25,523 nt of DNA from an archaeon (GCA_036385775.1 DASVJT010000144.1:1-25523), one strand, 5' to 3'. Numbered from the stretch's first letter, positions 6,488 to 25,523 are shown. The notes: generated by a model not told the origin, from the letters alone. Numbers and translations are program-made.

Positions 6488-6973
6488 TTGATACATTCAC
6501 CAAGCACCTTTTCCTTCAATTGTAGGCGTATAGGTGGGTGAGGAGAATTATTTTGTGTGGCATTTTGTGTGGCGTTTAACAAAAAGAAGAGATCGCCCCC
6601 CCAAACCACAATATGCCTTTTAGAACGGCGAAAATGACTGCGAAAAGGATATGGAGCGTCCAATAATTGGCGTGCCAAATTAGTCTTCTGTACCACCCAG
6701 TCAGGCCCATTCCAAATGAACCTTCCATTTGCACGATGTCGAGTGGACATATCGCTGAAAAACCGAATAACGTCTTTTCGAGTTGCGCTAAAATGTTTAG
6801 CTGTGCGGCGCTTACTTTACTCTCGGCCCAAAGTTTACAAGCCCAAACCATTGAAATGCCAATCGCTGTAATTAGCGAAGTTGGTCTACCAAATCTCGCC
6901 ATCGTTCAATGCGGCCTTCGAGATCTGTCTCAACAAAAAGAAGCAGTCATCTATAGCCTAAGCTATTTATGAC

Positions 6974-7055
6974 GCAAGGCGTGAGTGGAATTGATTGAAA
7001 GCATTACAAACATCCGCTGCCTGAGCACGTGAATGACGTTTATCTGCAATATTGG
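6974..7055 (+). repeat. Degraded copy of the segment at 13780-13860 (LKAL.HPLPEHV.DVY...W)
   Basis: GATTGAAAGCA..CATCCG.TGCCTGAGCACGT..ATGA.GTTTAT is shared by both copies; this copy has a TGA stop and a 1-nt insertion. Confidence 0.8.
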
Positions 7056-7375
7056 AAGGACACTCGATTCACAGCATAAGGGGCCTGAGGATAAGTAAGA
7101 ATTGCCGGACGAAAAACTTGAATACTCTTTTTGACGGAAACGTTAAATTGTTATTAATCGAGCTCGATTTAGCTACTACAAAGGAGCGTATAGAGGAAAA
7201 AATAACAAAAAAGGAAGGTGGAGTGGGCTTTGCATATGCAGATGCATAGCCCTAAAGATTGTGTTTTGTGTCTAAAAAATCTATCTTTCGTTCCGTTCCA
7301 CACTTGACCATAGCTATCTACAAGATAGGTAACTACTACATTCTCAAATATGAGTTTGCTTCACAACTGTGTTTG

Positions 7376-11862: not shown

Positions 11863-11963
11863 TAGAAATGCTGCATCAGGAACGATACTGACTTCGGGCC
11901 CAAACTGTTTGAAGAAAAAAGAATAGGAATAGTTAAGACACCAATCACCACTTGCATAAGCGT

Positions 11964-12470
11964 ATGCAATTGAAACCGATAATTGCGATAATTGTTCTTT
12001 CGCTTGTAGCTGCCTCTTTGCTAGTATCGGGGTGTACTACAACGAATAACACAGCGACAAACCAACCTACAACTAGCGATATGTCAGTCACCGTGAAATC
12101 GGTTGCTTTATCACAGCAAGACCAATTAGGTGTGAATAAACAAGGCTACAAATTTGTTGCCTATAATTGCACCGTGAATAATACTGGCACAAAAAGCAGG
12201 CCGGTCGGTTACAATTCATGGGAGTTGCGAGATATGCAAGGGGGCGTTTATGCGCCTCTGTTGGCCACTAACGTATCTGGGACAGAATGGTCTAGAATAA
12301 CAAACGGGAATTGGTGGATTCCCACTATATCAAAGCCTGGATATGTATTACACGGTGTTGTCGTTTTTGAAGTGCCTCAAAACGCTACGCTTACCTCTTT
12401 AACTTACAACGACGGGGTTACGAAAACAGTCACGACGCTAATATTTCAGCCGTATAGCGTGTTCCTTTAA
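11964..12470 (+). CDS. DUF4352-like lipoprotein
   Basis: Signal peptide with LLVSGC lipobox; YKFVAYNCTVNNTG...WELRD..G..Y and GVVVFEVPQNA..LTYNDG match the DUF4352 Ig-like pattern. Confidence 0.8.
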   Translation: MQLKPIIAIIVLSLVAASLLVSGCTTTNNTATNQPTTSDMSVTVKSVALSQQDQLGVNKQGYKFVAYNCTVNNTGTKSRPVGYNSWELRDMQGGVYAPLLATNVSGTEWSRITNGNWWIPTISKPGYVLHGVVVFEVPQNATLTSLTYNDGVTKTVTTLIFQPYSVFL

Positions 12471-12622: not shown

Positions 12623-13306
12623 CTACATCATCCCAGAACCAAAGCCATTGCCCATGTGCTCCTGCATCTCCTGCTGCATATCAGAGCGCATGTCCGCGTT
12701 CATTCCTTGCCCCATGTACGGACCCATGCCATAGCCATTTCCGGCATACCCGTGCATATCATCCCACATGTGCTGCCACATGTTTTGCTGATACGGCGCT
12801 TGTCCTGTGGCACCGCCGGTAATAACCATACAGTAGTAAGGCATAAGCGATGAGGTGCCATGTTCCACGGCCGCCCCTCTCTGGGTATTCGCGTTAAAAC
12901 CTGACCACGCCGTCGCATTCTGCTGCACCGAAGCGTACCCCTGCCCCATGAACATGTTTTGAATGGCGAGGAAGTGTGCCTGCGCCGTTGATGCGTTATT
13001 GCACGCTTGGACGCTCACGACGTAGGTGCCGTTACTATCCCTCACGGTGCCGTTGTAAACCGCAATCCCTACTTGCGGACTTGGTTGCAGTGAAAACGGT
13101 GTCGCCATGGTAAAGTTCAGCTGTTGCATCGTGGTTCCGAGGTACTGGATGACGGATTGGTTGCCGGCAGCCGTTGTTGTGGTTGTTGCTGTGCTGGCGC
13201 TGAGAGTAGGCGTTGGCGAAGACGTTGAAGAACTCGTGCACCCTGCAGCGAGAACGGCTACGAGCATCACTACCGCTAATGTCCCTGCTAAAAACGATTT
13301 TTTCAT
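12623..13306 (-). CDS. Lipoprotein with S/T linker and Met/His/Gly-rich C-terminal tail
   Basis: MKKSFLAG...VLAAGC lipobox, TSSSTSS linker; tail NMWQHMWDDMHGYAGNGYGMGPYMGQGMNADMRSDMQQEMQEHMGNGFGSGMM. Confidence 0.88.
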   Translation of the reverse strand: MKKSFLAGTLAVVMLVAVLAAGCTSSSTSSPTPTLSASTATTTTTAAGNQSVIQYLGTTMQQLNFTMATPFSLQPSPQVGIAVYNGTVRDSNGTYVVSVQACNNASTAQAHFLAIQNMFMGQGYASVQQNATAWSGFNANTQRGAAVEHGTSSLMPYYCMVITGGATGQAPYQQNMWQHMWDDMHGYAGNGYGMGPYMGQGMNADMRSDMQQEMQEHMGNGFGSGMM

Positions 13307-13779
13307 GTTGAAACCTCTAAACTATTCAAACTAAGTCAGTCCCGCACAGCTTGAGCTATAAATCTTTGGCGTGTTATGCGCAGCGCTGACTTGAAGCTTA
13401 GTTTAAACCAAATCCTTAAGCGCATCCAATAGTGCTTTTCGTTCAACTGAGTCAGTCGGATATATATAAAAATCGACGCCTCGGCCCCTACCACGTCGTT
13501 GTCGTTCTACCTCAACATGACCATAAAGCTCCAATTCAGCGATGAGCGCTGAAAAAGTTTTATGCGAAACCTACTCACGACCACTGAGCGCATGATGTTG
13601 TTGAATTCCCGATAAACTTCGGTTGATGATTGCTTTCCTTCCTTACTGTAAACAATTTCCAGCGATATCTTACTTACAAGAATGGCAACTCATAATGTTC
13701 TTTGCGATCTGAGAAAGTCCACCGAACAATACAGCGATATTATTCAGTGGGATCGGTCAAATTGAGCATACATACTTAC

Positions 13780-13890
13780 GCACGGGGTGAGCGGAATCGA
13801 TTGAAAGCACTAAAGCATCCGTTGCCTGAGCACGTATATGATGTTTATATGAAAAACTGGGGAGCGTATCTATTACGGCTTGATCCCTAA
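13780..13890 (+). pseudogene. Gene 3' fragment ARGERNRLKALKHPLPEHVYDVYMKNWGAYLLRLDP, homologous to 6974-7055
   Basis: Nucleotide and amino-acid similarity to the 6974-7055 copy; no convincing start. Confidence 0.55.
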
Positions 13891-14539: not shown

Positions 14540-15381
14540 TTAGCCGTCAGTCTGCGGTGGACCTTTCTCAAGCAGCTCTAGTATTCGCTCTTCTGCAGAA
14601 ACTGACTGTCCCCACATTATTTCGAAGGTCAACATAAGGTATTGAGCAGAGATGAGCTTATCGGTCCACAACGCTGCCATTTCTTGATCAAGCGAGACGC
14701 GCGTCATGTTCACATTAATCGCGCTCATACAAGCGGTTCGGTCGAATATTGTAAACTTTATCCCACGCTTATCTAAGTAACGCACCTCTTCTCCGTTAGC
14801 TATCATTTCTTGCGCTATCTCGATGATGGGGTAAGAGAGATTATATAGAAGGCGCGAACCCTGCCTCCGCGTGCCATAAAATCATAGGCGGCTTGGTTGA
14901 TGCCAAACTGTGAGGCAATGAGGACCGCGGACTCGGGAACAACCATCACCCACTCTTCCTTCATCGAGGTTACAACAGGTAATAGTGTAGCGACGAGTTC
15001 CTTTACATTCTTGATGATCTTGAACGTCGTCAACTTATCTGTCGGGTGAAATCGCTGTTGCCGTGCCAATTCCGGCAGCTCCTGCTTTCGCACCTCCATC
15101 TCGCGAAGTTCGCTCTCTTGTATTTTAAACGCGGCTTCGAGAGCGACCTCAAGGTCCACAGCGGCGAATGCTGTAAGTGAATTGTGCGATGGACGTACCA
15201 TGCCTTTTTCAATGAGGCTCGTGAGCGTCCGGTGCATGTCGTCAAGATAGGTGTGAATCGATTTGGCGAGCGGTAACGGTGTCTTGGGGCCGTACTTAAG
15301 CAAGTGAAGATATGTCTGTGCCTCCTTTTCACTGAGCCCAAACCCAATTAAACGGTGTGTGAACTCGTCATCCATGGTCAT
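14540..15381 (-). pseudogene. TrmB-family transcriptional regulator split by a 1-nt frameshift near 14855
   Basis: N-terminal wHTH (LIGFGLSEKEAQTYLHLLKYGP...LTSLIEKGMV); the other frame continues NLSYPIIEIAQEMIANGEEVRY...YLMLTFEIMWGQSVSAEERI. GAGGTGA RBS. Confidence 0.88.
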
Positions 15382-15387
15382 TAGTTA

Positions 15388-15575
15388 TCACCTCGTAAGT
15401 GAGCTGAATGATTGATATGCGTTACTTGAAGAGGGGTGAAGCACGCCGTTCACAGCGTTGGCGAGGCGCTCTGCACACGTAGTACAGTCTGGATCGTTTG
15501 TGTACAAGCAGCCGAAGTGGAGGCCATACCAGCAGCCCCTTTTTTGTGGTCGTTACGTTCGTCTATAACGTTCAT
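15388..15575 (-). pseudogene. Third Cys/His micro-protein (C-x4-H-x2-C-x7-C-x2-C), frameshifted in an A6 run
   Basis: ATG 15575 (MNVIDERNDHKK); a -1 shift at the A6 run (T 15540-15545 on +) gives RGCWYGLHFGCLYTNDPDCTTCAERLANAV... with the stop inside the TrmB RBS. Confidence 0.65.
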
Positions 15576-15638
15576 CTCCGATCCACACTACACAGAGTGG
15601 TTTCATAAGGCCGCATGAGTCAGCTTTTACGCTAAAAA

Positions 15639-15713
15639 CCAAAATAAGAGGCTCTCGATGGGTAAAGTCGGCATCAAAAACTGAGGGTAAAGCGTTTGAG
15701 CTACCTAAAAAAA
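15639..15713. repeat. Dispersed repeat, copy 3
   Basis: CCAAAATAAGAGGCTCTCGATGGGTAAAGTCGGCATCAAAAACTGAGGGTAAAGCGTTTGAGCTACCTAAAAAAAG. Confidence 0.88.
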
Positions 15714-15735
15714 GGAAGGAAGCGCTCCCGCTTCC
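15707..15735 (-). terminator. Hairpin + T7 tract
   Basis: GGAAGCG-CTCC-CGCTTCC (15718-15735) followed on the minus strand by TTCCTTTTTTT. Confidence 0.45.
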
Positions 15736-15962
15736 GTGAGGGCAGCGTCCGCATTTTCTATTTCTTACGCGCTGTTGCGACAAGAAAAAACCACCAGCCA
15801 CATCGAAGAGCACAGTGGTTGCCGTGTCAGCTTTTAGCTTGATTTTTTGCGCGCTCAGTTGCATTATTGTTATAAGAACTATTGTTATAAAAATCGCCGA
15901 ATAAAAGTGTGACACGCGTTCTCTGTCACGATAGCTTAAGAGCTGTGTGCCGCAACATAAAA

Positions 15963-16133
15963 ATGATGACTGGTAATCGTGTTGTCAATGATTTGGATGA
16001 GTTCTTAATCGTCTTCTCCAGCACCATAGACGACGCGCAGACTGCGATTGTTTGGATTGCCCCGCCATCTGGTCGGAGACATGAAGACGAACCGTTCTTA
16101 AATCGAACACGAGGTGACGAAAATATCCACTGA
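15963..16133 (+). CDS. Hypothetical micro-protein
   Basis: MMTGNRVVNDLDEFLIVFSSTIDD...; overlaps the next gene's RBS (GAGGTGA); weak support. Confidence 0.35.
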   Translation: MMTGNRVVNDLDEFLIVFSSTIDDAQTAIVWIAPPSGRRHEDEPFLNRTRGDENIH

Positions 16134-16359
16134 CACAAGCGCAAGGGAAATGACGACGCCATCCGCGTGGCTCGCGGCGCTGTACGCTGAATATGACGGC
16201 TTGCTCGACACGCTGGAATCATTGCAGGTGCAGCTGAAATCGCAAGGACGCCTTAACCAGATGAAACGCCGCGAGTTACGAAGAAAGGTGCACTCCGTCT
16301 GTGAAAAACTGGCCGATGTGCACGAACAGATGGCCGATTTCGATTTTGTCATAATGTGA
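16114..16359 (+). CDS. Hypothetical coiled-coil protein (start GTG 16114 or ATG 16150)
   Basis: Heptad pattern LYAEYDGLLDTLESLQ...VCEKLADVHEQM. Confidence 0.55.
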   Translation: MTKISTDTSAREMTTPSAWLAALYAEYDGLLDTLESLQVQLKSQGRLNQMKRRELRRKVHSVCEKLADVHEQMADFDFVIM

Positions 16360-16429
16360 CGCGGCACGCTTTCAACTATCTTGCTTGCCGTGCTGTTCAA
16401 GCGCTTGGGAACTCAAGGTGAGTACTCTC

Positions 16430-16498
16430 GTAGGTGCGACGGTGCATCCACACACCTTTCGACATTCGTTTGCGATACACAGCGTGCCGTACGGGTGG
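16430..16498 (+). mobile_element. Tyrosine recombinase/integrase remnant (H-x-x-R box)
   Basis: VGATVHPHTFRHSFAIHSV..GW; the downstream LGH and catalytic Tyr region is missing. Confidence 0.8.
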
Positions 16499-16510
16499 GC
16501 ACCCACTGCA

Positions 16511-16527
16511 CCGCCGTGTGAAGACGG
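16511..16527 (-). mobile_element. tRNA-Val(CAC) anticodon-arm remnant, putative att site
   Basis: Minus strand CCGTC-TT CAC AC-GGCGG forms a 5-bp stem with a 7-nt loop, and matches the arm at 25003-25017. No D- or T-arm. Confidence 0.65.
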
Positions 16528-16720
16528 AGGATTCGGGGCTTTCGAAGGCATTTTCTGCACACGATATGATCACGAGAAAAGCCAACGCTCTCTCTTGAAC
16601 GGTTTGATAGATTCGAGTGGACAAACCTACAAGTCGCGAGAAAGTGTTTGGTAGCCGTATTATTGGGTAGTCATAGCCAGTTTTCGCGTGGTGCAGAGAG
16701 ATTTTGCAGCGGTGAATCTC
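16511..16720 (-). pseudogene. att-adjacent small protein (PIIRLP family), start lost; paralog of 25011-25259
   Basis: EIHRCKISLHHAKTGYDYPIIRLPNTFSRLVGLSTRIYQTVQERALAFLVIISCAENAFESPESSVFTRR; AGGAG RBS upstream, but an in-frame TAG sits where the start should be. Confidence 0.8.
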
Positions 16721-16981
16721 CTATAACTCCTATTTGGGCAATACAGCATCAGTGAAAAGTTCTGAGTAATGTTGTTCGGCTAGCATAATAGTGAGTGGGA
16801 TCAGTGCAAGCCATTTAATCGTTGTGATTAGCCGCGTGTGACTAGCAAAAGTCAATTTGAACCTCGAAACATACCATACGAAAACCGGGGCATCGTTGTA
16901 GCCATCCTGTCGGTCACGTGTGTCTTACGAAAACACTTGCGCTGTAGGCTACTATTCCAATCCCCCAGAATACAAGCACAA

Positions 16982-17632
16982 TTATGATTTTAATAACCTG
17001 ACGTACTCAACAGGGGCGCTAGAGGGGCTAGTAGGGTCTTTTATCACGTCCAGACTCACCAATGTGAAGCTTGTTTCATCCAGAAGTTCGCTGACCGATC
17101 GAAAGCTAACGGGGGGAAGCTTCCCACGCCACGCGAAGATGTTGCGGCATAAAAACTGGAACATGCGAAATCCTCCAAGAAGCGGTAAATTTGGGTTTGC
17201 AATTATAACGCGCCCCGAGGGCTTTAAAATCCGCTGACTTTCTTTCAGCACTTGCACTTTATCATCCACGCATGGTATGACGAACCCTGAAAAAATAGTG
17301 TCAAACGATTCATCGGCGAAACTCGTGTTTTGCCAGTTTTCATTCTTGAACTCGACGTTATCGAAACCCGCTAACTCGGTTTGTGCGACGTGCAGCATAT
17401 CATCTGAAAAGTCGGTTGCAACCACATGTTCCGCTTGACCGGCGAGTGTTTTCGTGAAGTAGCCGGTGCCACACCCGAATTCTACGACCGTCCCCAAGTG
17501 ACCTTCATGCCTTAACTTTTCATTGATTAACGGGCGGATATTACGACCTAGTGCGCTATCGACTGATTTATCGTAGCTTTGTGACGATTCAGACCAATAA
17601 TCCACTTTGTTCTTCGCCATTTTGTCCCCCAA
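16982..17632 (-). CDS. Class I SAM-dependent methyltransferase
   Basis: Motif I VVEFGCGTGYFT, VATDFSDDML, FADESFDTI, LKPSGRVII. Confidence 0.92.
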   Translation of the reverse strand: MGDKMAKNKVDYWSESSQSYDKSVDSALGRNIRPLINEKLRHEGHLGTVVEFGCGTGYFTKTLAGQAEHVVATDFSDDMLHVAQTELAGFDNVEFKNENWQNTSFADESFDTIFSGFVIPCVDDKVQVLKESQRILKPSGRVIIANPNLPLLGGFRMFQFLCRNIFAWRGKLPPVSFRSVSELLDETSFTLVSLDVIKDPTSPSSAPVEYVRLLKS

Positions 17633-17694
17633 CGGTTATTGATTCGTTACTCATCGTTCGCCCGCTAATAAACACTTCCTATAGCGAACTTTAG

Positions 17695-17829
17695 TGCCAG
17701 TGGGGGATACATCATCACGACGAGCCCGATCGCAATGGGGAGCGAGGTCGTGCCGACCTGCAAGCTGCTAAGCACGGCAGGGATGCCGGGGATGCGGTAA
17801 CCGAGAAGCACCCCTGTGACCAGCGCTAG
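17695..17829 (-). pseudogene. ACR3 arsenite efflux permease N-terminal fragment
   Basis: LALVTGVLLGYRIPGIPAVLSSLQVGTTSLPIAIGLVVMMYPPLA; PIAIGL..MMYPPLA is the ACR3 signature. The rest of the gene is absent. Confidence 0.8.
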
Positions 17830-17951
17830 GTATTTTTAGCAAAGGAACATTTTAGAGACGGCTATCGTCCTCGCAATTCGTCTCACCACTACCCTATATA
17901 AAAAAAGGTTATTAGCAAGTATGACCGATAACAAGCCAAGCTGTTTGTCAC

Positions 17952-18296
17952 ATGTTCGAGAACATCGTCAATTGGGTCGCCGTTGTCAACTGGATTGTCA
18001 CCTTCTTCGAGCTCGTAGGCGCTCTTCTCATTTTCTACGGAAGCGCCCGCGTCGCGTTGGAACTCGTGACGAACGCTTTTCGTCGAAAAGCCCCAAATTA
18101 TACGGCTATTCGATTGGACTACACGCCCAAAATCCTTCTCGCTTTGGATATTTTTGTTGCGAATGACCTTGTGAGGACCGTACTCACCCCCACGTTGGAT
18201 CAGGCTATTATTCTCGCATTCGTCGTAGGCATCCGAACAGTAGTAGGAATTTCCCTCAATATGGAGCTGAGGAGCTCAACAAATAAGGAAAATTGA
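17952..18296 (+). CDS. DUF1622 domain membrane protein
   Basis: YTAIRLD...ILLALDIFVANDLVRTVLTPTLDQAIILAFVVGIRTVVGISLNMEL. Confidence 0.85.
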   Translation: MFENIVNWVAVVNWIVTFFELVGALLIFYGSARVALELVTNAFRRKAPNYTAIRLDYTPKILLALDIFVANDLVRTVLTPTLDQAIILAFVVGIRTVVGISLNMELRSSTNKEN

Positions 18297-18422
18297 AAGT
18301 TGGAAAAAGGCCTAGATAGCCTGGTGTTGTTAATAGGGGGGGCTGCATAACGAGCCTGATCGATTACGCGTTGTTGTTGGTCAGATGCAACCAAATGCAA
18401 CTTGCGGTTTCGCTTATGCATC

Positions 18423-19064
18423 CTACTTCTCGCTCTCCGCAGGAGCGGAAGTGGCGGGAACATCAGTTGCCGACTGTGACTGGGCAAAACCATCTCCCAA
18501 ATGACCGATAGAAGTGACTTCTGCCTCCAGTTGTTGCAGCGAGATGCCGTTTTTCTCCAGGAGGTGGATCAGCATACGAGTATGGCGCAGCAGTTCTGTA
18601 TCTTGGACTGAGAGATGTTGCATAATATGTTCAACATCTTTATAGCTGCTCATCGTCGTATTGAACTGCTCCTCTGCCTGAAGTTCCGACTTTCTTCCGA
18701 GCACATTCTGTCCTACCATGATAATCGGTAGTAAGGTCAGCTGTAGGAATGTTTGTGAAATCCATACAACTAGTAATGCGACGATGGGACTGAGCAAGCC
18801 AAGAATGGCCATCAATCCAACGACGGCAAGCGCCATAAACGTATACGCCGTCCACATTGTACCAGCGCTTTTAGTAAGCGTAACAGCAATCTTTGTATTA
18901 ATGCCAGCCGCCTTTTGCTCTGCTTCGTGAAGCAGATTGACATTGCGTGGCTGGTACGGATGATGTTCGTGATCAAACAACGCGCTGGTATGGTGATGTG
19001 GGTGCGCCTGTGTCTGTGGCACAATCTCTGTTTTGATAGAGTCCGAGGTGGTCTCTCCTTGCAT
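18423..19064 (-). CDS. DUF1003-like membrane protein with His-rich N-terminus
   Basis: INTKIAVTLTKSAGTMWTAYTF...WISQTFLQLTLLPIIMVGQN...AEEQF; N-terminal HPHHHTSALFDHEHH. Confidence 0.75.
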   Translation of the reverse strand: MQGETTSDSIKTEIVPQTQAHPHHHTSALFDHEHHPYQPRNVNLLHEAEQKAAGINTKIAVTLTKSAGTMWTAYTFMALAVVGLMAILGLLSPIVALLVVWISQTFLQLTLLPIIMVGQNVLGRKSELQAEEQFNTTMSSYKDVEHIMQHLSVQDTELLRHTRMLIHLLEKNGISLQQLEAEVTSIGHLGDGFAQSQSATDVPATSAPAESEK

Positions 19065-19120
19065 ACTAATTACCCTCCGATTGCTAAAATTTACCTATGT
19101 GTTCGATTATATCTCCTACT

Positions 19121-19531
19121 TTAATACGAAGCGCCGTTAAACGGTGGGGGGTCACAGCGCACGCACGGCTTCAAACCAGCGGCGCACGCTTCTATATGGG
19201 TATTGAACGTAACGAGGTTTTCCGCGTCAATATTTGCAACTTCAAAACATCCCGGGTAGTGATATCTCTTTGCCAATGATTTTGAACTCGCATAGTATGG
19301 GCCGCCGTAGGATTGACGCCTGGACAACTGATTCGCAGTCAGAGCTGAGTGCTTAAGCGTTTTAATCGGCGGATTACTCGCTACGTGCGTCGTGGATGTT
19401 GTCGATTGCACGACGTTGTTCGACAAGCTCCGCGCTGATACGTTGGGACTCGACGCGTTGATCGACAGACTCCCGGCGGTAATAATAGCTGCACACACTA
19501 GGACGATACAGATTGCGGCCAATTTTTTCAT
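19121..19531 (-). CDS. Secreted protein with C-terminal Ada-type metal-binding domain
   Basis: MKKLAAICIVLVCAAIITAG signal; YYASSKS..RYHYPGC.....I...N.V.F.T..EA.AAGLKPCVRCDP. Confidence 0.82.
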   Translation of the reverse strand: MKKLAAICIVLVCAAIITAGSLSINASSPNVSARSLSNNVVQSTTSTTHVASNPPIKTLKHSALTANQLSRRQSYGGPYYASSKSLAKRYHYPGCFEVANIDAENLVTFNTHIEACAAGLKPCVRCDPPPFNGASY

Positions 19532-20244
19532 CGGTTTGACCTCGCAACGTTGGGATCTTGCACAAACAATGATTTCAAAGAAGATGACACTCTTCAAACA
19601 GGCTTATAGTCAACGGAATGAACTGATCAGAGTTAACAAAATATGCGCTCTTACGCTCCATCGAAGCAGCCTTCAATTCTCTGATTTAAAAAAAACGCGA
19701 AAGCTGTAGGACACTTTATGTCACTTCGCAAGACCAGTTAATCATAACGGATTTCTCTCCACTCGCTATCTCCTCTCCAATCCGTTGATTTACAGCGAGG
19801 ACACCGCACAAATGCATTTACTTTGAACTTACCGCCGCACTTACAAACTCCTGCAAGTTGTTCGGCCTATTCTTTATCATCAGGAGATAGACCGTGATCG
19901 ATCAACGAAATCCAGTGCTCCTTACTACATCGGTCGCAATGAAAAACCAAGTATTATCTTCGAGGGACCACTTCTTACGAGAAATTTCGTTTCACAGGAA
20001 TTGGATATCGCGCCATATTCAGAACCCATCTGACATCTCCTGTCACTTTGAATATTATTTTACGCCTCTTAGAAATTGACATCGCCTTTTCATATTGTCT
20101 GCATTTGTAGGGGGGTTCATCGAAATAGCGAATAGATAATGAGTAGGAGTCTCACTAAGGTTACGCATCCTCGTGACGGCAGCGCCCGCGTAACCTACCC
20201 CCTCAGTTCATATTTCTTCGGTGTCGATCTAGTGCGAACTCCCC

Positions 20245-20643
20245 TTATTTGCTCGCCGGCACGGGACAATAACGCAGTTCACTGATGATCTTCGATTGCT
20301 GGCTCATAAGATCTGCCAGGTCGAATATTCCGGTAACATCGACAACGCCGATGGCAGCTATTGCCGAACCTGTGCTATCCTGGATAGGGGCAACTATCAC
20401 TGGTACGCTTTTGTATTCTCCCGCTAGCGGTTGCGTCCTTATCACGATGTTCTCGGCAAGAACTTGTTCGAGTATGGGGCCCGTATAGTTCCTACTTTTC
20501 ACCTTGCCGTCTTCAATTTGAACGCCACGATGATTCTGGCTTCGTATCGTGACGGGCAGGCCGCCTAATATGGCGTGAACTGCCATCGCGAGCGGGATTA
20601 AATCGCTGCTCGCGGAGTCTGATGAAAGTTCATATCGTTCCAT
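20245..20643 (-). CDS. DUF2111 domain protein
   Basis: LPVTIRS...GVQIEDGKV...YTGPILEQVL...GEYKSVPVIVAPI...AIAAIGVVD; GAGGGG RBS. Confidence 0.85.
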   Translation of the reverse strand: MERYELSSDSASSDLIPLAMAVHAILGGLPVTIRSQNHRGVQIEDGKVKSRNYTGPILEQVLAENIVIRTQPLAGEYKSVPVIVAPIQDSTGSAIAAIGVVDVTGIFDLADLMSQQSKIISELRYCPVPASK

Positions 20644-20684
20644 TTCTTGTACATCCCCCTCTCAGTCTTCGCCTACGCAAACGG

Positions 20685-21154
20685 CTATTTTTCACCTTTG
20701 ACTTCCTTGCCCTTGTAATACTCGGCTTTCTTCCGCTCTGCTGCGCCCGGCGGGATCCCCCCGAGCTGTTGCACGACGTCGAGGCTATCAAAGACGCGCC
20801 AGCGCTCAACGATTTTACCGTCGACAAGCACGTTGAAGCTCATCATATCTTCTTTTACCTGTTTGCCGGTCGCTGGGATACCCATAAACTCACCACCGTG
20901 TGTTCCGCGCAGCTTCCAGCGTTCTGCGACGATATCCTTCTCGGCGATCATCGACTCGATGGTGAAGCTGGCGTCGGGCAAGCCGGTGCGGAGTGCCCGA
21001 AGCGCTGCTTGAATCTTTCGACGCCGGGTGCTTGTCCTTCGATCGGCATATGATCGACCGCGCTGGCGGCTAACACGCCGTCAAACGCGTTCAGGTCTCC
21101 CGTGTTGAACGCATCAAAAAGCCGGCGAATGACCTTCTTATTATCTAGTGACAT
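20685..21154 (-). pseudogene. SnoaL-like ester cyclase, frameshifted at the G run (C 20996-20998 on +)
   Basis: MSLDNKKVIRRLFDAFNTGDL... then (A)LRTGLPDASFTIESMIAEKDIVAERWKLRGTHGGEFMGIPATGK...GKIVERW; one extra G restores the frame. Confidence 0.88.
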
Positions 21155-21365
21155 AGCGTATTTATTGTTCTACGTCACGTTTAAAGCAGTTGCCCATCGC
21201 TTCGCGACAACGAAGGGAAAAAAGGAGCAGATAGCGTTTTCCGTTTAGCCTATCTTCATCTTCCCCCCAATTATTTCTTTTTTCGATTTTAAGGCATTGA
21301 AGGGCTCAGCTTCAGACTTGCACCGAACATACCTTTATCGTGTCTACAACTGACCGTGTGTGTGT

Positions 21366-21944
21366 ATGATTGACTTCAATTCGGTCTACCAAGGTGACGC
21401 GCCTTGGGACGTCAACCATCCACGGAAAGAGTTCGTACGGCTAGAGGAGGCGGGAGAAATCGTCGGATCCGTCCTCGACGTTGGATGCGGAACCGGAGAG
21501 AATGCGCTGTTTCTTGCGGCACGAGGACACGAGGTGTGGGGCATTGACTTCACCTCCAATGCGATCAAAAAAGCACGAGACAAAGCGATAGAACGTAATC
21601 TCAACGTTACATTTCTCATGCAGAACGCGCTCGATCTGCACACCCTTGATAGGGTATTTGATACCGTCATCGACTCAGGATTATTTCACGTGTTTAGCGA
21701 CGAAGAACGTCCCCTCTTTGTGACGAGTCTTGCGAGCGTTCTACGCCGCCATGGAACCTACTTTATGCTTTGTTTCAGCGAACTGGAGCCTGGCTCATAC
21801 GGTCCGCGGCGGGTTACGCAGGACGAGATCAGGAATGCTTTCAGTAGCTCATGGCACATCAATTACATTCGACAGGCACGCATGGAAAGTCGACGATTGA
21901 CCGAAGGTATCCAAGCGTGGCTCTCGTCCATCTCGAAAGAGTAA
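21366..21944 (+). CDS. Class I SAM-dependent methyltransferase
   Basis: APWDV..P, VLDVGCGTGENALFLA, GIDF, FDTVIDSGLFHVF. Confidence 0.92.
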   Translation: MIDFNSVYQGDAPWDVNHPRKEFVRLEEAGEIVGSVLDVGCGTGENALFLAARGHEVWGIDFTSNAIKKARDKAIERNLNVTFLMQNALDLHTLDRVFDTVIDSGLFHVFSDEERPLFVTSLASVLRRHGTYFMLCFSELEPGSYGPRRVTQDEIRNAFSSSWHINYIRQARMESRRLTEGIQAWLSSISKE

Positions 21945-22131
21945 ATTGCTAACAATTGCAGACCAGTCTGAAAGAGTGGAGCGGTCATCAACCGGACACA
22001 AGAGAAAGACTTAGTGCGTTCCTATAAGCTATCCTTTATCTCCTAGCTCGTTTATTCTTTTTTCTATTAAAAGGGCGTGACGTGCTGGGATTTATGACCG
22101 GCGCAAAAGAAAAAAGGAAAAAAAGTAGGTC

Positions 22132-22657
22132 TCAGCCTAATCCGGTTGACGTGGTTACCAGTGTGACACAAAGTAGTTTGTCGTATCCCGAGTGTTATAT
22201 GCCACTTAACCGTTGTTCGAGTTCGACCCAATCCACGATGTGCTGTTTGTGTGCACAGGGATGCAGCCTCGCTGCTGAGCATCAGTTGTGGCCGCCATAA
22301 ACGCGCTTGTGGTTCCTGCTGACGATTTGGCGAGTTCGACGCGGCGCCATACACGTATTTGCCGTTGGTTAACGTTCCTGTATACTAGTCGTTCCCTGTT
22401 GTGTTGCTCGCGCTCTTATTGAAGGGAATAATTACACTGTAGCCCTGACCTTGCATGTAACTCGTGAAGAACGAGCTCAGATCCGTTGAATTCAGGAGCG
22501 CCGTGGGCGCGATGGGTTTTACAGAAGCTGCCGTCATATTAGCAGTCACGGTCGCATTGACCCAAACTTGATGAGAGATCAATGATTTGCCCGACGAAGA
22601 TTTGGGTGGGATAATGATCAGTACAAGCGCGAGGAGCGTTTGGAGCGTCGCCCCCAT
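22132..22657 (-). pseudogene. Decayed paralog of the 12623-13306 surface lipoprotein core
   Basis: FFTSYMQGQGYSVIIPFNKS...ND*YTGTLTNGKY, a shift, then AFMAATTDAQQRGCIPVHTNSTSWIG..NNG*. Aligns by eye with YLGTTMQQLNF..PF...YNGT...GQGY..VQQNATAWSG. Long T tract after the end. Confidence 0.6.
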
Positions 22658-22667
22658 AAAGGGGCGG

Positions 22668-23378
22668 TCAGCCGCCGATTAGCAATCCTATCAGGACACC
22701 CGCGATAGCTGCAGCAGTTGCGATGGCTATGGTCTCCAGTACCGTCCTTCCCATCGGGCGTTTGCCAATCTTTGCCCTGTAGATACCGAGCAGGATCAGG
22801 AGAGTAGCGGTACCGATGATACAGGCTATCCGGGCATCGGCAAACGGCAGAAATACGAAAGGTATCACTGGGGTTAATCCGGCCGCAAAATCCGTGATCC
22901 CCATCCAGCCGGCCTGCACGAGCATGGAGCTTTTCTGGGAGGCGGGGGCCTCCTCACAGGCGACCGCGTCCTCGAATGTGCGGATCGCCAGGGGGTTAGC
23001 CTGTATATCAGTCCGGATCGTATCGAGGCTTTTACTGCTCAGGCCTGTTCCCTGCAGCACGCCCATCAGCTCGTTCACTGCATGGTCAGGATCACGACGG
23101 ATCTCGGTTTCCCGCTGCTCTGCCTCCACCCGGGCTTCGTCTCTCTCGGACTCGAGATCGAGGTAAAGCCCCGCCATCATCGAGACCGACGCCGCAATGG
23201 CGCCCGTAGCGCCTGCAAGAAACACGGCACTTCCGGACTGGGCACCTACTGCGACGCCGAGCACGAGCCCGAAAATCGAGACAGCACCATCCTCCATGCC
23301 GTATACGACGTCCCCCGCAGAGCCGCGGAGTGATTCCTTAATCCGGTTGAGGAATGACGGGCTGGTTGCTTCGCTCAT
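22668..23378 (-). CDS. VIT1/CCC1 family metal transporter (start ATG 23378 or 23399)
   Basis: DVVYGMEDGAVSIFGLVLGV...GAIAASVSMMAGLYL..ESE and AAGLTPVIPF. Confidence 0.9.
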   Translation of the reverse strand: MSEATSPSFLNRIKESLRGSAGDVVYGMEDGAVSIFGLVLGVAVGAQSGSAVFLAGATGAIAASVSMMAGLYLDLESERDEARVEAEQRETEIRRDPDHAVNELMGVLQGTGLSSKSLDTIRTDIQANPLAIRTFEDAVACEEAPASQKSSMLVQAGWMGITDFAAGLTPVIPFVFLPFADARIACIIGTATLLILLGIYRAKIGKRPMGRTVLETIAIATAAAIAGVLIGLLIGG

Positions 23379-23948
23379 GCCCGGATCAACCTCACACATA
23401 TCAAAATCATAGAGTATACAAAGGGATCCAAGGAATATAAAAGAATTGGAAATGAATTGGGGGTTGCTTCTTCAATTCCAGTTTCTCAACATGGTGGATC
23501 AGCCGGTGTTTGTTTACATATCCCCTGTTCACGGTCCGCCCATCACCGGGTGTGACATTTCTGCACACAAACGAGGCATTCCACCAGTTCTGCCTTCAAA
23601 ATTGACCTGTTTCGTCAGGTGCTCTTCTTTGTCATAATTCTGTGTTCCGGGCGGGCAGACCGATACCGGTATGAATTTGGATATAACAGGCCGGACAGGT
23701 GGTTTATGAAACGACGGGTGGCAACATCCCCAATTGCCGCACCAGCTTCGGACATGGCCCCAAAGCAACCTGTGGGATGCCGCCTTCAGTGGATTGAATT
23801 CAGGATGGCATCCACTGCTCAGGATCCTTGCGCCCTTGGCGTTGTCCTGAGACGGGGGAATGACGTCGAAATCCCCGCATGTCTGACCTGTTTCGGGAGA
23901 AAAACAAAAGATTAATCCTTCAGGAATTAACAGCTGAGATAGCTTTTC

Positions 23949-24638
23949 ATGAAAAAGGAATATCCGGAAGGTGAGGCGATACACCTTGCCAAAAGTCGGT
24001 ATCCGGAAGGTGAGGAGATGCACCTTACCAAGAGCCGGCTGGAAGCCCTGACGGATGGGATCTTTGCCTTCTCGATGACATTGCTTGTTGTAGGCATCAA
24101 CATACCGGAGAAGGCGGCCCTGGTCCAGTCGACAGGCTTCGTCACGAACCTTCTCTTCTCGCTGTGGTCTGATTTTTTCCATTATATGCTGGCCTTCCTG
24201 ATCCTTGGGGCATTCTGGCTTAGCCACCATGTCGAACTCCATCCTGTGAGTCGTCTGAACCGGACGTATGTCTGGCTCAATATGGGGACCCTCATGTTCG
24301 TTGCCCTCCTTCCTTTCTCCACCTCCTTTTCGGGTGATTTTCCTAGTGTCCCCCTCGGTCAGATCGTATTCGAGCTGAACCTTTTTGCACTCGGGATGGG
24401 GATGTTCCTGCAATGGAAGTACGCCACTGGGAAAGACCGCCTGGTTGAACCGGGTATGGCCCCTGGTTTTGTCCGGCAGGTGGGCGCCCGTTCCCTGGTC
24501 GTCCCCTTAGTCTCCCTCCTCGCGGTCCTTATCGCCCTGACGGGGAAGACGTGGAGCACGGCGGTTTACCTGCTCCTTCCACCGATCGAGTATATAGTCG
24601 TCCGCTGGGTGAGAAGGCAGGCAGAACCTTCCGAATGA
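23949..24638 (+). CDS. TMEM175 (DUF1211) family channel protein
   Basis: SRLEALTDGIFAFSMTLL signature; W..HH; VALLPFST. Confidence 0.9.
   Translation: MKKEYPEGEAIHLAKSRYPEGEEMHLTKSRLEALTDGIFAFSMTLLVVGINIPEKAALVQSTGFVTNLLFSLWSDFFHYMLAFLILGAFWLSHHVELHPVSRLNRTYVWLNMGTLMFVALLPFSTSFSGDFPSVPLGQIVFELNLFALGMGMFLQWKYATGKDRLVEPGMAPGFVRQVGARSLVVPLVSLLAVLIALTGKTWSTAVYLLLPPIEYIVVRWVRRQAEPSE
23961..24038 (+). repeat. 39-bp tandem duplication (2 copies) in the TMEM175 N-terminus
   Basis: TATCCGGAAGGTGAGGCGATACACCTTGCCAAAAGTCGG / TATCCGGAAGGTGAGGAGATGCACCTTACCAAGAGCCGG. Confidence 0.9.
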
Positions 24639-24977
24639 ATTATCGTTTATCCCTATCATTCCCGCCTGTGCATCTACCCGTCTAAACACGGCTACGGGAT
24701 CGTGTCGCGTCGTGCATTCCCAGAGGTTTCTTCTCACTTCGAGTACAGGCGTACCGTCAGCGTCGGATTCCATTGCACAATCAAAAAGAACTGCGCGGCC
24801 CCTGCCTGAATTATGCACGACAAATAAGAGCATCTCATCCACGGCTACAGCAGGGAGCTACATAAGGTGGAGTCCTCGCGACCGGCGAAATCATAGGAGT
24901 GGAGTAGACAACTGAGTAGACGACTGAGAAATCGAAAAAGTGCGCTGCGTGACTTGATCAGAAAAAGAACGATTGCA

Positions 24978-25017
24978 TCGGCCGGATTCGGACCGGCGAC
25001 CTCCGCCATGTCAAGGC
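24978..25017 (-). mobile_element. 3' half of tRNA-Val(GAC), putative attR
   Basis: Minus strand GCC-TT GAC AT-GGCGG AGGTC GCCGG-TCCGAAT-CCGGC CGA gives the anticodon loop, variable loop and full T-arm (one T>C change). No 5' half. Confidence 0.85.
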
Positions 25018-25259
25018 CCCATATACGCGTCAGTGTCTAAATTTCTTTTATAACCATTTAAGCCCTTAGGCACAACTAACTGACTATTTAACTCATTAGG
25101 CACGACTAAAAACGCGAGTGCGCCATTATACGTCGTTTTGTAGATCGTAGCGGCTGAACCCGCTAGTCGGCGAAACTCGCGCGGCAATCTTATAATAGGA
25201 TGCGCGTGCGATGGCTTCGAACTTTGAACGCATATTTTGTGCGTGCAAATCGGTTGCAT
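25011..25259 (-). CDS. att-adjacent small basic protein (PIIRLP family; possible swapped-hairpin DNA binder)
   Basis: MQPICTHKICVQSSKPSHAHPIIRLPREFRRLAGSAATIYKTTYNGALAFLVV...; its TGA lies in the tRNA fragment's anticodon loop. Confidence 0.8.
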   Translation of the reverse strand: MQPICTHKICVQSSKPSHAHPIIRLPREFRRLAGSAATIYKTTYNGALAFLVVPNELNSQLVVPKGLNGYKRNLDTDAYMGP

Positions 25260-25408
25260 AAACTATAGCATGTTGTTATGTTCATAAAAACGAGCGACGA
25301 TAGTGAAATAGCAAAAATGAAATAGTAAAAAAACTACGCTAGATGAGTCGTATGTAGAAACCGTTGCGTTTCACACCTATATAACAACGATATAATCGTG
25401 AGGAAAAA

Positions 25409-25519
25409 ATGACAGATACAATATGCGATACCTGTGAGCTGTATTTATACCACTGTCGTGGATGGATGAAGAGAGAACGGGGCTGTGACCTTTATGAAAT
25501 GAAAAAAGGAGGCGAATAG
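25409..25519 (+). CDS. 36-aa Cys-rich micro-protein
   Basis: TATATAA at ~25378-25384 and GAGGA RBS; MTDTICDTCELYLYHCRGWMKRERGCDLYEMKKGGE; its 3' end carries AAGGAGG for a next gene outside the window. Confidence 0.6.
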   Translation: MTDTICDTCELYLYHCRGWMKRERGCDLYEMKKGGE

Positions 25520-25523
25520 ATCC

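What the first reader, a model, noticed from the sequence alone, without database searches (positions are those of the whole stretch)
16511..25259. Small conserved gene that reads into the tRNA-Val att site, twice: candidate archaeal directionality factor or integration-linked switch
Two homologous ~70-80 aa proteins share KI....K....PIIRLP..F.RL.G....IY.T....ALAFLV. Both are on the minus strand and run into a tRNA-Val fragment. In the GAC copy the stop is formed by U33-G34-A35 of the anticodon loop; in the CAC copy a different frame reads through the arm (VFTRR). The repeated tight coupling suggests an att-end module of a family of integrative elements. The RLP..F..L.G...IY pattern resembles AbrB/MraZ-like swapped-hairpin DNA binders (inference). 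To my knowledge, recombination directionality factors for archaeal tyrosine integrases are not characterised, so this is a candidate. For read-through versions, the C-terminus could differ between excised and integrated states, as with att-spanning repressors of some mycobacteriophages. That cannot apply to the GAC copy, whose stop is inside the core.
Basis: partly seen in the sequence, partly recalled or inferred. Interest (0 to 1): 0.8.

Follow-up and report, generated by a model that had tools for sequence, protein, structure and literature searches.

The report
Front halves of self-splitting integrase genes
The two small genes are most likely the front ends of integrase genes that were cut in two when mobile elements inserted into a valine tRNA gene, a self-splitting design described mainly from heat-loving archaea and seen here, in a different integrase family, in peat-bog archaea.

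Summary
Two homologous minus-strand ORFs run into tRNA-Val pieces, and the TGA of the GAC copy is U33-G34-A35.

Two corrections:
- Copy 1 is decayed. It has two in-frame TAGs, and only a 20-nt anticodon arm of the tRNA is left.
- The stop in copy 2 comes from a private 2-nt deletion.

The conserved 55-residue core is a real protein domain:
- It is under purifying selection (dN/dS about 0.12).
- It has a beta-beta-alpha-beta-beta AbrB/SpoVT-like fold.
- It is predicted to form an intertwined dimer.
- It matches no Pfam, PHROG or NCBIfam model.
- It was found in only one family of peat-bog archaea, at 1-28 matches per genome.

It is probably not a separate directionality factor. Related genomes hold uninterrupted genes in which the domain, a linker carrying the tRNA-derived att core, and a complete tyrosine recombinase form one ORF. 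The best case is a 450-residue gene. Split versions of the same subfamily lie beside tRNA-Val. So the window's ORFs are Int(N) moieties of "suicidal"-type integrases, left at attR ends of stacked genomic islands.

The integrase matches PF00589 weakly and PF16795 not at all, and tandem or hybrid junctions are common. Both features differ from the known SSV/pTN3/pT26-2 group.

Confidence is about 0.75. The main rival is a separate att-proximal accessory gene.

Other first-reader notes on this same window had already flagged both junctions.

The parts
25011..25259 (-). Int(N) moiety, copy 2 (c2 clade). It is an 82-aa ORF with an ATG start. The conserved AbrB-like core is 25095-25259. The tail is variable and holds a 30-nt internal duplication. 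The stop TGA is at 25013-25011, inside the anticodon loop.
24961..25019 (-). attR remnant. It comprises tRNA-Val(GAC) positions ~29-69 (with T54>C), a mutated acceptor 3' strand, and the tRNA trailer ATCGTTCTTTTT.
   Evidence: Loose ends of contigs show cross-mapping from intact tRNA-Val genes.
16397..16786 (-). Decayed Int(N) moiety, copy 1 (c1 clade). The ancestral ATG is at 16786-16784. There are in-frame TAGs at 16732-16730 and 16723-16721. The core is 16562-16720, and the frame then runs through the att arm to a TGA at 16397-16399.
   Evidence: It is 56% identical to residues 26-105 of the unsplit integrase P0371, including the linker and the att-coded VFTR.
16511..16530 (-). att core remnant, the anticodon arm of tRNA-Val(CAC) (CCTCCGTC TTCACAC GGCGG). 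The P arm just upstream (AGCCCCGAATCC) resembles the P arm of the unsplit gene P0371. The rest of the tRNA is deleted.
16427..16498 (+). A 24-residue stub (…VHPHTFRHSFAIH…) of an unrelated mini tyrosine recombinase (about 175-190 aa, catalytic domain only). It converges on the att arm and is debris of another element layer.
13628..13860 (+). C-terminal remnant (residues ~365-474) of the large integrase family to which the Int(N) domains belong. It lies in the opposite orientation, so it belongs to a different element layer.
6960..7061 (+). A second C-terminal remnant of the large integrase (residues ~443-476).

Best explanation
The two ORFs are Int(N) moieties, the N-terminal pieces of integrase genes that carry their own attachment site inside the reading frame (the 'suicidal' or SSV-like architecture).

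The unsplit gene encodes four parts in order:
1. A 55-residue basic AbrB/SpoVT-like domain, predicted to form an intertwined dimer.
2. A disordered linker whose DNA holds the att core. The core is either the tRNA-Val anticodon arm alone or the whole 3' half of the tRNA. It is read sense or antisense, in a subfamily-specific frame.
3. A helical core-binding domain.
4. A tyrosine-recombinase catalytic domain.

Recombination with tRNA-Val cuts the gene. In the sense type, the catalytic part (Int(C)) ends up just behind the tRNA at attL. The small domain with an arbitrary tail ends up at the far end, reading into the tRNA-derived repeat at attR.

The window shows two such attR ends from stacked, decayed islands. 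Copy 2 has an intact domain, with its tail cut short by a 2-nt deletion. Copy 1 is a pseudogene.

What is shown:
- the anatomy
- the homology
- the existence of unsplit and split versions
- the fold
- purifying selection on the domain

What is inferred:
- that the fused protein is the active integrase
- that the N domain acts in dimerisation and/or DNA binding
- that loss of the N domain on integration changes or abolishes activity
For: 1. Unsplit genes exist.
- P0371 is 450 aa, from a closed 2.74-Mb relative, in a cluster of 7. It is one uninterrupted ORF: c1-type small domain, linker, then integrase (residues 134-449 are 43% identical to the family's 481-aa integrase, E 4e-93).
- Inside that ORF lies GTCGCCTTCACACGG, which equals tRNA-Val(CAC) positions 26-40. 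There is no tRNA within 9 kb.
- P0370 (412 aa) runs from the domain through the GAC 3' half (ALTWRRSPVRIRPSP), the spacer and the integrase N-terminus into the core-binding domain.
- Further continuous examples: P0134, P0172, P0153, P0130, P0366, P0369, L037-L040.

2. The antisense type behaves the same way.
- P0270/L205, L192 and L200 read from the domain end through a coiled coil, an antisense tRNA half (GLDRIRTGDLRRV) and a linker into the integrase in one frame.
- These integrases have no conserved start between att and the core-binding domain.

3. Split versions of the P0371 subfamily exist.
- L080 and L081 show the tRNA-Val 5' part, the core, the same P' arm (CTTCCTTTTTCAAA) and Int(C).
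- Window copy 1 shows the same P arm and the core, followed by tRNA 3' nucleotides.

4. Every integrase lying directly behind an intact or 5'-truncated tRNA-Val is open back into the tRNA-derived sequence. The frame is 1, 2 or 3 by subfamily, paralleling the three frames of the small-ORF tails.

5. The domain is a real protein domain.
- dN/dS medians are 0.13 and 0.11, with synonymous sites near saturation.
- The AF2 topology is beta-beta-alpha-beta-beta, followed by a disordered linker (residues 78-134) that holds the att-coded residues, then confident core-binding and catalytic domains.
- The best AFDB fold hit is an AbrB/MazE/SpoVT protein (E 1.2e-3, probability 1.00).
- For the homodimer, the model supports binding: score 0.54 against a best control of 0.00. 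That mark was reached by 20 of 30 solved homodimers and 1 of 23 solved monomers.

6. The large integrase is a tyrosine recombinase.
- PF00589 matches at 30.3 bits against a cut-off of 27.1, and it matches the PHROG integrase family.
- Foldseek hits XerA, lambda Int, IntI and Cre at probability 1.00.

7. Hybrid Int(N)/Int(C) junctions with att read in different frames are a described consequence of suicidal integration (Badel et al. 2020, PMC7253208).
Against: 1. Sense-type integrases keep a start codon at a fixed place about 60 nt after the tRNA end. It is ATG, GTG or TTG in 14 of 15 loci examined, with Val and Leu encoded specifically by GTG and TTG. It is preceded by a GAGG-like motif and a T-rich, TATA-like stretch. 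So the catalytic part can probably be made on its own, which also fits a classical integrase with a separate upstream gene.

2. The 60-nt spacer shows no third-position bias.

3. No single element was found with cognate Int(C) at attL, cognate Int(N) at attR and perfect direct repeats.
- The cleanest insert (L063, 5.85 kb, 64-nt repeats) has Int(N) but no integrase.
- L139 pairs mismatched halves.

4. Several fused-looking loci carry one frameshift between the domain and the rest (L192, L200, L205). These genomes are suspected, not confirmed, to be long-read assemblies, so the shifts may be errors or may be real decay.

5. Unsplit genes in chromosomes could be tandem-junction hybrids rather than native genes.

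6. PF16795, the hallmark of known suicidal integrases, does not match.

7. None of the 120 best integrase homologues, as called by gene finders, carries the domain.

8. No excision joint was seen in public runs.
Confidence: 0.75

Rival explanations
1. The small ORF is a separate gene for an att-proximal accessory protein, and the integrase is classical. The accessory protein would be an AbrB-like DNA binder acting as a recombination directionality factor, an architectural factor or an int regulator. In the circle the order is small gene, attP, int. The continuous ORFs would be accidents of tandem junctions.
For: - A conserved start codon plus GAGG and a TATA-like stretch precede the sense-type integrase, about 60 nt after att.
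- The spacer is not visibly under coding constraint.
- The small-ORF tails are variable and disordered, and are read in three frames.
- Many copies occur without an integrase in the same insert.
- RDF genes usually sit next to int or att (general knowledge).
- No archaeal RDF is known, so the niche is open (PMC8371274).
Against: - P0371 is a complete 450-aa fusion with the att core in the linker.
- Antisense-type integrases lack any conserved start after att and read on from the domain's own linker.
- Integrase frames stay open back through att in every locus checked, in three independent frame classes.
- The clades of the small domain do not co-vary with the anticodon type of the att piece.
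Confidence: 0.17
2. An integration-dependent switch of a stand-alone regulator, as in some mycobacteriophage repressors. The protein's C-terminal tail would differ between attP and attR states and control its stability or activity.
For: For read-through copies, the residues after the tRNA-derived repeat necessarily differ between states.
Against: - The tails are unconserved, predicted disordered, and read in three frames.
- They are cut short in copy 2 by a private 2-nt deletion.
- In unsplit genes the tail is simply the linker to the integrase.
Confidence: 0.04
3. The ORFs are not genes. The similarity would be DNA-level conservation of the P arm of attP.
For: The ORFs overlap the P arm and the core half-site.
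Against: - dN/dS is about 0.12, with synonymous sites near saturation.
- The fold is confident and a dimer is predicted.
- An HMM search found 565 cluster representatives.
Confidence: 0.01

Closest known systems
Suicidal (SSV-type) integrases of SSV1/SSV2, pTN3 and pT26-2 (She et al. 2001; Cossu et al. 2017; Badel et al. 2020 PMC7253208; review PMC8371274)
   Same: - attP lies inside the integrase ORF.
- Integration into a tRNA gene leaves Int(N) at one end and Int(C), carrying the catalytic domain, at the other.
- The att piece can be read antisense through the tRNA 3' half.
- Hybrid Int(N)/Int(C) pairs occur with att in different frames.
- The N-terminal part serves multimerisation in SSV integrases (from the review, PMC8371274).
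   Different: - There is no PF16795 match. Only a weak PF00589 match is seen, and the nearest folds are XerA, lambda and Cre type.
- Int(N) is an AbrB/SpoVT-like domain.
- The hosts are peat-bog MAGs, not hyperthermophiles. Only 5 mesophilic Methanosarcinales members were known.
- Tandem and hybrid junctions that rebuild int genes are common here, but were 'never observed' there.
- Sense-type Int(C) keeps its own start codon.
- Both att orientations occur within one family.
AbrB/MazE/SpoVT swapped-hairpin DNA-binding domains (PF04014), including C56 of the Sulfolobus integrative plasmid pSSVi (PDB 7xi6)
   Same: - The topology is beta-beta-alpha-beta-beta.
- An intertwined homodimer is predicted.
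- The domain is basic.
- The I-R-L-P / helix motif aligns in register with the xIPK / helix motif.
- The best AFDB hit is an AbrB-family protein.
- C56, MazE and an archaeal AbrB protein appear among the PDB matches.
   Different: - There is no significant sequence match to PF04014. hmmscan gives nothing, and hhalign gives probability 5.5% over 15 columns.
- Here the domain is the N-terminus of a recombinase, not a free regulator or antitoxin.
Lambda-type integrases with an N-terminal arm-binding domain, plus Xis-type RDFs
   Same: A small N-terminal DNA-binding or oligomerisation module sits ahead of the core-binding and catalytic domains. The target is a tRNA anticodon arm, as for many bacterial integrases.
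   Different: - The N domain has a different fold.
- The gene is cut by its own reaction.
- No separate Xis-like gene was identified.
Integration-dependent immunity of mycobacteriophages (attP inside the repressor gene)
   Same: attP lies inside an ORF, so integration changes the protein made.
   Different: Here the interrupted gene is the integrase itself, not a repressor, and the tail shows no conserved degradation tag.

Membership tests
Suicidal (self-splitting) integrases | The attachment site lies inside the integrase open reading frame. | tested here: met
   - P0371: a 15-nt tRNA-Val(CAC) core lies at L206:9301-9315, within an uninterrupted 450-aa ORF.
- P0370: the whole GAC 3' half lies inside a 412-aa ORF.
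- P0270/L205, L192, L200: an antisense tRNA half lies inside the ORF.

Suicidal (self-splitting) integrases | Integration leaves Int(N) and Int(C) at opposite ends of the integrated element. | tested here: inconclusive
   Both kinds of halves are found at the expected junctions:
- Int(C) directly behind an intact tRNA-Val (L074, L076, L139), behind a complete tRNA-Val sequence that ARAGORN does not call (L072), or behind the tRNA's 5' part (L080, L081).
- Int(N) reading into 3'-half repeats.
- Antisense Int(N) against intact tRNAs.
However, no single element with a cognate pair and perfect repeats was recovered.
Suicidal (self-splitting) integrases | Membership of the PF16795 (Phage_integr_3) superfamily, said to be monophyletic. 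| tested here: not met
   - PF16795 finds nothing in G000, G010 or G017, although G010 and G017 hold 12 copies each of this integrase.
- It gives only two sub-threshold hits, on the unrelated mini recombinases.
- hmmscan of the 481-aa integrase lists only PF00589.

Suicidal (self-splitting) integrases | The full-length protein catalyses integration and excision; the separated halves are inactive. | not testable with these tools
   This needs biochemistry. The conserved internal start of sense-type Int(C) suggests the halves may not be inert.
AbrB/MazE/SpoVT swapped-hairpin domain | Beta-beta-alpha-beta-beta topology. | tested here: met
   - Full-length model: E31-38, E41-47, H50-55, E61-67, E70-77.
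- The copy 2 model is compatible.
- The AFDB top hit is an AbrB/MazE/SpoVT protein: E 1.2e-3, probability 1.00, TM 0.56.
AbrB/MazE/SpoVT swapped-hairpin domain | Obligate intertwined homodimer. | tested here: met
   This is a prediction only. The score is 0.54 against a best control of 0.00. The mark was reached by 20 of 30 solved homodimers and 1 of 23 monomers. About 170 contacts cover nearly all residues.
AbrB/MazE/SpoVT swapped-hairpin domain | Sequence match to PF04014 or an AbrB profile. | tested here: not met
   - hmmscan finds no family for 32 members.
- PF04014 hits 1-5 loci per genome, not the 10-28 copies of this domain.
- hhalign against an AbrB alignment gives probability 5.5% over 15 columns, in register.
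Recombination directionality factors (Xis/Cox-like) | A small, separately encoded protein. | tested here: not met
   In unsplit genes the domain is fused to the integrase. Stand-alone ORFs arise through splitting.
Recombination directionality factors (Xis/Cox-like) | Stimulates excision and inhibits integration. | not testable with these tools
DUF2080 (PF09853) | Profile similarity. | tested here: not met
   One member gave E 0.087. hhalign against a DUF2080 alignment gives probability 2.5%.

The most novel reading that the evidence does not exclude
This is a second, independently evolved lineage of self-splitting integrases, of Xer/lambda-like ancestry and outside the PF16795 group. In it, integration does not kill the enzyme but switches its isoform. 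The excised element makes a full-length integrase with an AbrB-like dimerising and DNA-binding head. The integrated element makes a headless Int(C) from an internal start, plus an orphan head. The dozens of orphan heads per genome could then act as directionality or immunity factors, either by poisoning or by complementing incoming integrases. That would be an RDF-like control without a dedicated RDF gene.
Probability: 0.25. Interest if true: 0.8.

Novelty: new variant of a known kind. Interest (0 to 1): 0.62.

Why it matters
According to the 2021 review, self-splitting integrases form one monophyletic group. They are found almost entirely in hyperthermophilic archaea, and tandem insertions have never been seen.

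If the reading here holds, three things follow:
- The same architecture exists in a different tyrosine-recombinase family, in cold peat-bog archaea.
- It uses a new N-terminal domain.
- It occurs in large stacked arrays at tRNA-Val that repeatedly rebuild hybrid integrase genes.

That gives natural material for two open questions. One is how such elements ever leave the chromosome. The other is how att specificity and reading frame co-evolve.

It also explains hundreds of 'hypothetical' 70-140-residue ORFs in peatland metagenomes. It warns annotators that these ORFs, and the 'headless' integrases beside tRNA-Val, are halves of one gene.

Tried and rejected
1. I first rejected the Int(N) reading. 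My reasons were that the tRNA piece is read in all three frames, that the top 150 of 565 HMM hits are 229 aa or shorter, and that a recombinase converging on copy 1 cannot be its other half. This was wrong.
- The converging gene is an unrelated mini recombinase.
- The short hits reflect split genes and short contigs.
- The three frames match three integrase frame classes.

2. The mini tyrosine recombinases (about 175-190 aa) are not Int(C). They have their own start, no tRNA upstream and the opposite orientation, and their copy numbers do not track the small domain.

3. DUF2080 and PF04014 kinship by sequence was not supported.

4. PHROGs, NCBIfam, the ESM Atlas and the PDB sequence search gave nothing useful for the small domain. 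The 'Cake' hits are repeat artefacts.

5. Foldseek and VIA searches of the monomer model against the PDB gave only weak matches.

6. Laying contigs of four public runs on 15500-25523 gave no excision or circular joints. It showed only tRNA cross-mapping and contig breaks at the att arm. There was no transcript evidence for the small ORFs.

7. The region 15000-25523 is not syntenic as a block in relatives. Only single gene modules recur.

8. A cognate Int(C)...Int(N) pair in L139 failed, because the frames and anticodon types differ.

9. No literature on C56 of pSSVi was found in the library.

Full report
**Observation**

The window is a whole 25.5-kb contig (C144) of a 65%-complete MAG.

Copy 2:
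- The ORF is 25011-25259 (-), 82 aa, with an ATG start.
- Its TGA is T33-G34-A35 of a tRNA-Val(GAC)-like piece.
- That piece matches positions 30-69 of the genome's intact tRNA-Val(GAC) (contig C229) at 97.5%.
- It continues with a mutated acceptor strand and the tRNA trailer.

Copy 1:
- The core is 16562-16720 (-).
- It reads ...SSVFTRR... through a 20-nt CAC anticodon arm at 16530-16511.
- It is decayed. Intact relatives begin about 22 codons further upstream, and copy 1 has two in-frame TAGs there.

ARAGORN and Rfam call no tRNA in the window.

**A large, lineage-restricted family tied to tRNA-Val**

- The genome holds 7 copies.
- In the same family, 22 of 23 genomes hold 1-28 matches each, many with internal stops. 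None of 17 genomes from other families of the phylum has one.
- Named relatives are peat bog and fen MAGs labelled Halobacteriota, Methanomicrobia or 'bog_38'.
- A profile search of 1.84 billion representatives finds 565 clusters.
- Of 39 copies with enough flank, 27 have a tRNA-Val-like piece within 300 nt downstream: 19 sense and 8 antisense.
- In the own genome, 5 of the 6 partial tRNA-Val pieces follow a copy. The intact tRNA-Val(GAC) is abutted by an antisense copy that reads about 50 nt into it.
- Orientation relative to the tRNA has switched several times on the family tree. The c1 clade (100/100 support) is all sense.

**The domain is a real, folded protein module**

- dN/dS medians are 0.13 (45 pairs) and 0.11 (36 pairs), with synonymous sites near saturation.
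- AlphaFold gives strand, loop with the I-R-L-P motif, helix, two strands, then a disordered tail.
- In a full-length context the topology is beta-beta-alpha-beta-beta.
- The best AFDB cluster hit is an AbrB/MazE/SpoVT protein (E 1.2e-3, probability 1.00, 26% identity).
- Weak PDB matches include C56 of pSSVi, MazE and an archaeal AbrB protein. An AbrB profile built here recognises all three by sequence.
- For the homodimer, the model supports binding: score 0.54 against a best control of 0.00. That mark was reached by 20 of 30 solved homodimers and 1 of 23 monomers.
- Sequence profiles do not reach significance in Pfam, PHROGs or NCBIfam, or by hhalign against AbrB or DUF2080 alignments.

**Finding the integrase**

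A clean insert in a relative (L063) shows:
- an intact tRNA-Val(TAC)
- a 64-nt direct repeat (tRNA position ~29 to the 3' end plus trailer) 5.85 kb apart
- the small ORF reading into the distal repeat
- only cargo genes inside

Directly after that repeat lies a decayed large tyrosine recombinase. Intact versions are about 430-480 aa, hit PF00589 at 30.3 bits, and match the PHROG integrase family. They sit immediately behind tRNA-Val on the same strand (intact and ARAGORN-called in L074, L076 and L139), at 4-19 copies per genome where present (found in 20 of 24 genomes searched).

The own MAG holds only fragments of it, two of them in the window.

**From 'separate gene' to 'front half of the integrase'**

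I first read the small ORF as a separate att-proximal gene. Three sets of data changed this.

(a) Unsplit genes exist.
- P0371 is 450 aa, from a closed 2.74-Mb relative. It is one ORF with the c1-type domain, a linker and a complete integrase (43% identical to the 481-aa reference, E 4e-93).
- A 15-nt tRNA-Val(CAC) core lies in the linker, and there is no tRNA within 9 kb.
- P0370 (412 aa) runs through the whole GAC 3' half into the core-binding domain.
- A dozen shorter continuous examples exist.

(b) Antisense-type genes read from the domain's own coiled-coil linker, through an antisense tRNA half, into the integrase. There is no conserved start after att.

(c) A three-way comparison within one subfamily shows the split directly.
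- The unsplit P0371 has the P arm, the core and the P' arm.
- L080 and L081 have the tRNA 5' part, the core, the same P' arm and Int(C).
- Window copy 1 has the same P arm, the core and tRNA 3' nucleotides. It is 56% identical to P0371 residues 26-105, including the att-coded VFTR.

In addition, every integrase lying directly behind tRNA-Val is open back into the tRNA-derived sequence, in frame 1, 2 or 3 by subfamily. These are the same three frames seen in the small-ORF tails.

The full-length model places the att-coded residues in a disordered linker (78-134), between the head and two confident recombinase domains. The nearest folds of those domains are XerA, lambda Int, IntI and Cre.

**What this means for the window**

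On the minus strand, copy 2 plus its att piece is the attR end of an element that lies beyond the contig end. Copy 1 plus its arm is an older attR.

The 8.4 kb between them carries cargo-like genes:
- methyltransferases
- DUF1622
- DUF2111
- SnoaL
- VIT1
- TMEM175

These recur singly, not as a block, in relatives.

The stop of copy 2 in the anticodon loop is a private accident. A 2-nt deletion just 5' of the core shifts it out of the frame used by its closest relatives.

A 24-residue stub of an unrelated mini recombinase abuts the arm of copy 1.

**Caveats**

- Sense-type integrases keep a start codon (ATG, GTG or TTG in 14 of 15 loci examined) with a GAGG-like motif about 60 nt after the tRNA end. 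The spacer shows no coding bias. So Int(C) may be made on its own, and a classical integrase with a separate upstream gene is not excluded (about 0.17).
- No single element with cognate halves was recovered.
- Some fusions carry one frameshift, in genomes suspected (not confirmed) to be long-read assemblies.
- PF16795 does not match.
- No excision joints were seen in public runs.

**Comparison with the literature**

- Suicidal integrases are described as archaeal, PF16795-bearing and monophyletic. They are almost all from hyperthermophiles (5 are from mesophilic Methanosarcinales).
- They have 40-50-bp att sites, no tandem insertions ever observed, and hybrid genes in which att is read in another frame (PMC8371274, PMC7253208).
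- The system here shares the architecture and the hybrid-frame signature.
- It differs in integrase family, in the head domain, in host ecology, in the abundance of tandem and hybrid junctions, and in the retained internal start.
- I therefore file it as a new variant of a known kind. I do not file it as a member of the PF16795 family.

Noticed in passing
window 16427-16498 (+); L044-L052 in relatives: There is a family of mini tyrosine recombinases (about 175-190 aa, catalytic domain only, own start, MK.ITDYLEKEQVD... HPHTLRHSFAIHLVR...). It is hugely expanded in some relatives, with 44 and 73 PF00589 matches in two closed genomes, often in tandem arrays. The window holds a 24-residue stub.
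   Followed up: partly
window 6960-7061 (+) and 13628-13860 (+); also G000 contigs C106, C173, C192, C240, C243, C251, C50, C87: Many isolated remnants of the last 30-120 residues of the large integrase are scattered through the genome. I have not explained why the C-terminal ends in particular survive.
   Followed up: partly
G000 contig C229:4224-4700 (L003); L053, L036, L028, L033: Antisense-type Int(N) ORFs (domain plus coiled coil) sit against intact tRNA-Val(GAC, TAC, CAC) and tRNA-His. They read about 50 nt antisense into the tRNA and stop in its D-arm region. Convergent 'sense Int(N) -> 3' half <- antisense Int(N)' junctions recur (L016, L021, L034, L035, L065-L067).
   Followed up: partly
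window 16511-16530; C192, C95, L139: In c1-type copies the P-arm side extends the anticodon stem to about 8 bp (CCTCCGTC / GGCGGAGG) around the 7-nt loop. This looks like an inverted-repeat core with the anticodon loop as the overlap region.
   Followed up: no
G000 contig C16:4740-4870 (-): A 5'-truncated tRNA-Val(GAC) copy (from about position 17 to the 3' end, perfect 3' half) has no small ORF upstream. ARAGORN does not call it.
   Followed up: no
L063:12900-16330; window 11952-12470 and 12623-13306: The integrase-less insert at tRNA-Val(TAC) carries six copies of a 45-nt repeat ahead of genes for secreted or lipoproteins that share a signal peptide (M..RMQLKPI.AI...). The same signal peptide occurs in a window ORF (11952-12470). 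This fits the promoter-like repeat noted earlier for this window.
   Followed up: no
L080 (G018:1664423-1667980), L081 (G023:C2:134645-138199): In the short-core subfamily the attL junction keeps only the 5' part of tRNA-Val(CAC) plus the anticodon loop. Integration therefore appears to disrupt the tRNA gene rather than rebuild it.
   Followed up: no
window 20685-21154 (-): The SnoaL-like cyclase gene is broken into two overlapping frames (a frameshift).
   Followed up: no
AFDB hit Q0W1B9: A 242-aa uncharacterised protein has an N-terminal stretch (7-54) resembling the head domain (25% identity, probability 0.84). It may be a relative outside the peat lineage; I did not check its source organism.
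   Followed up: no
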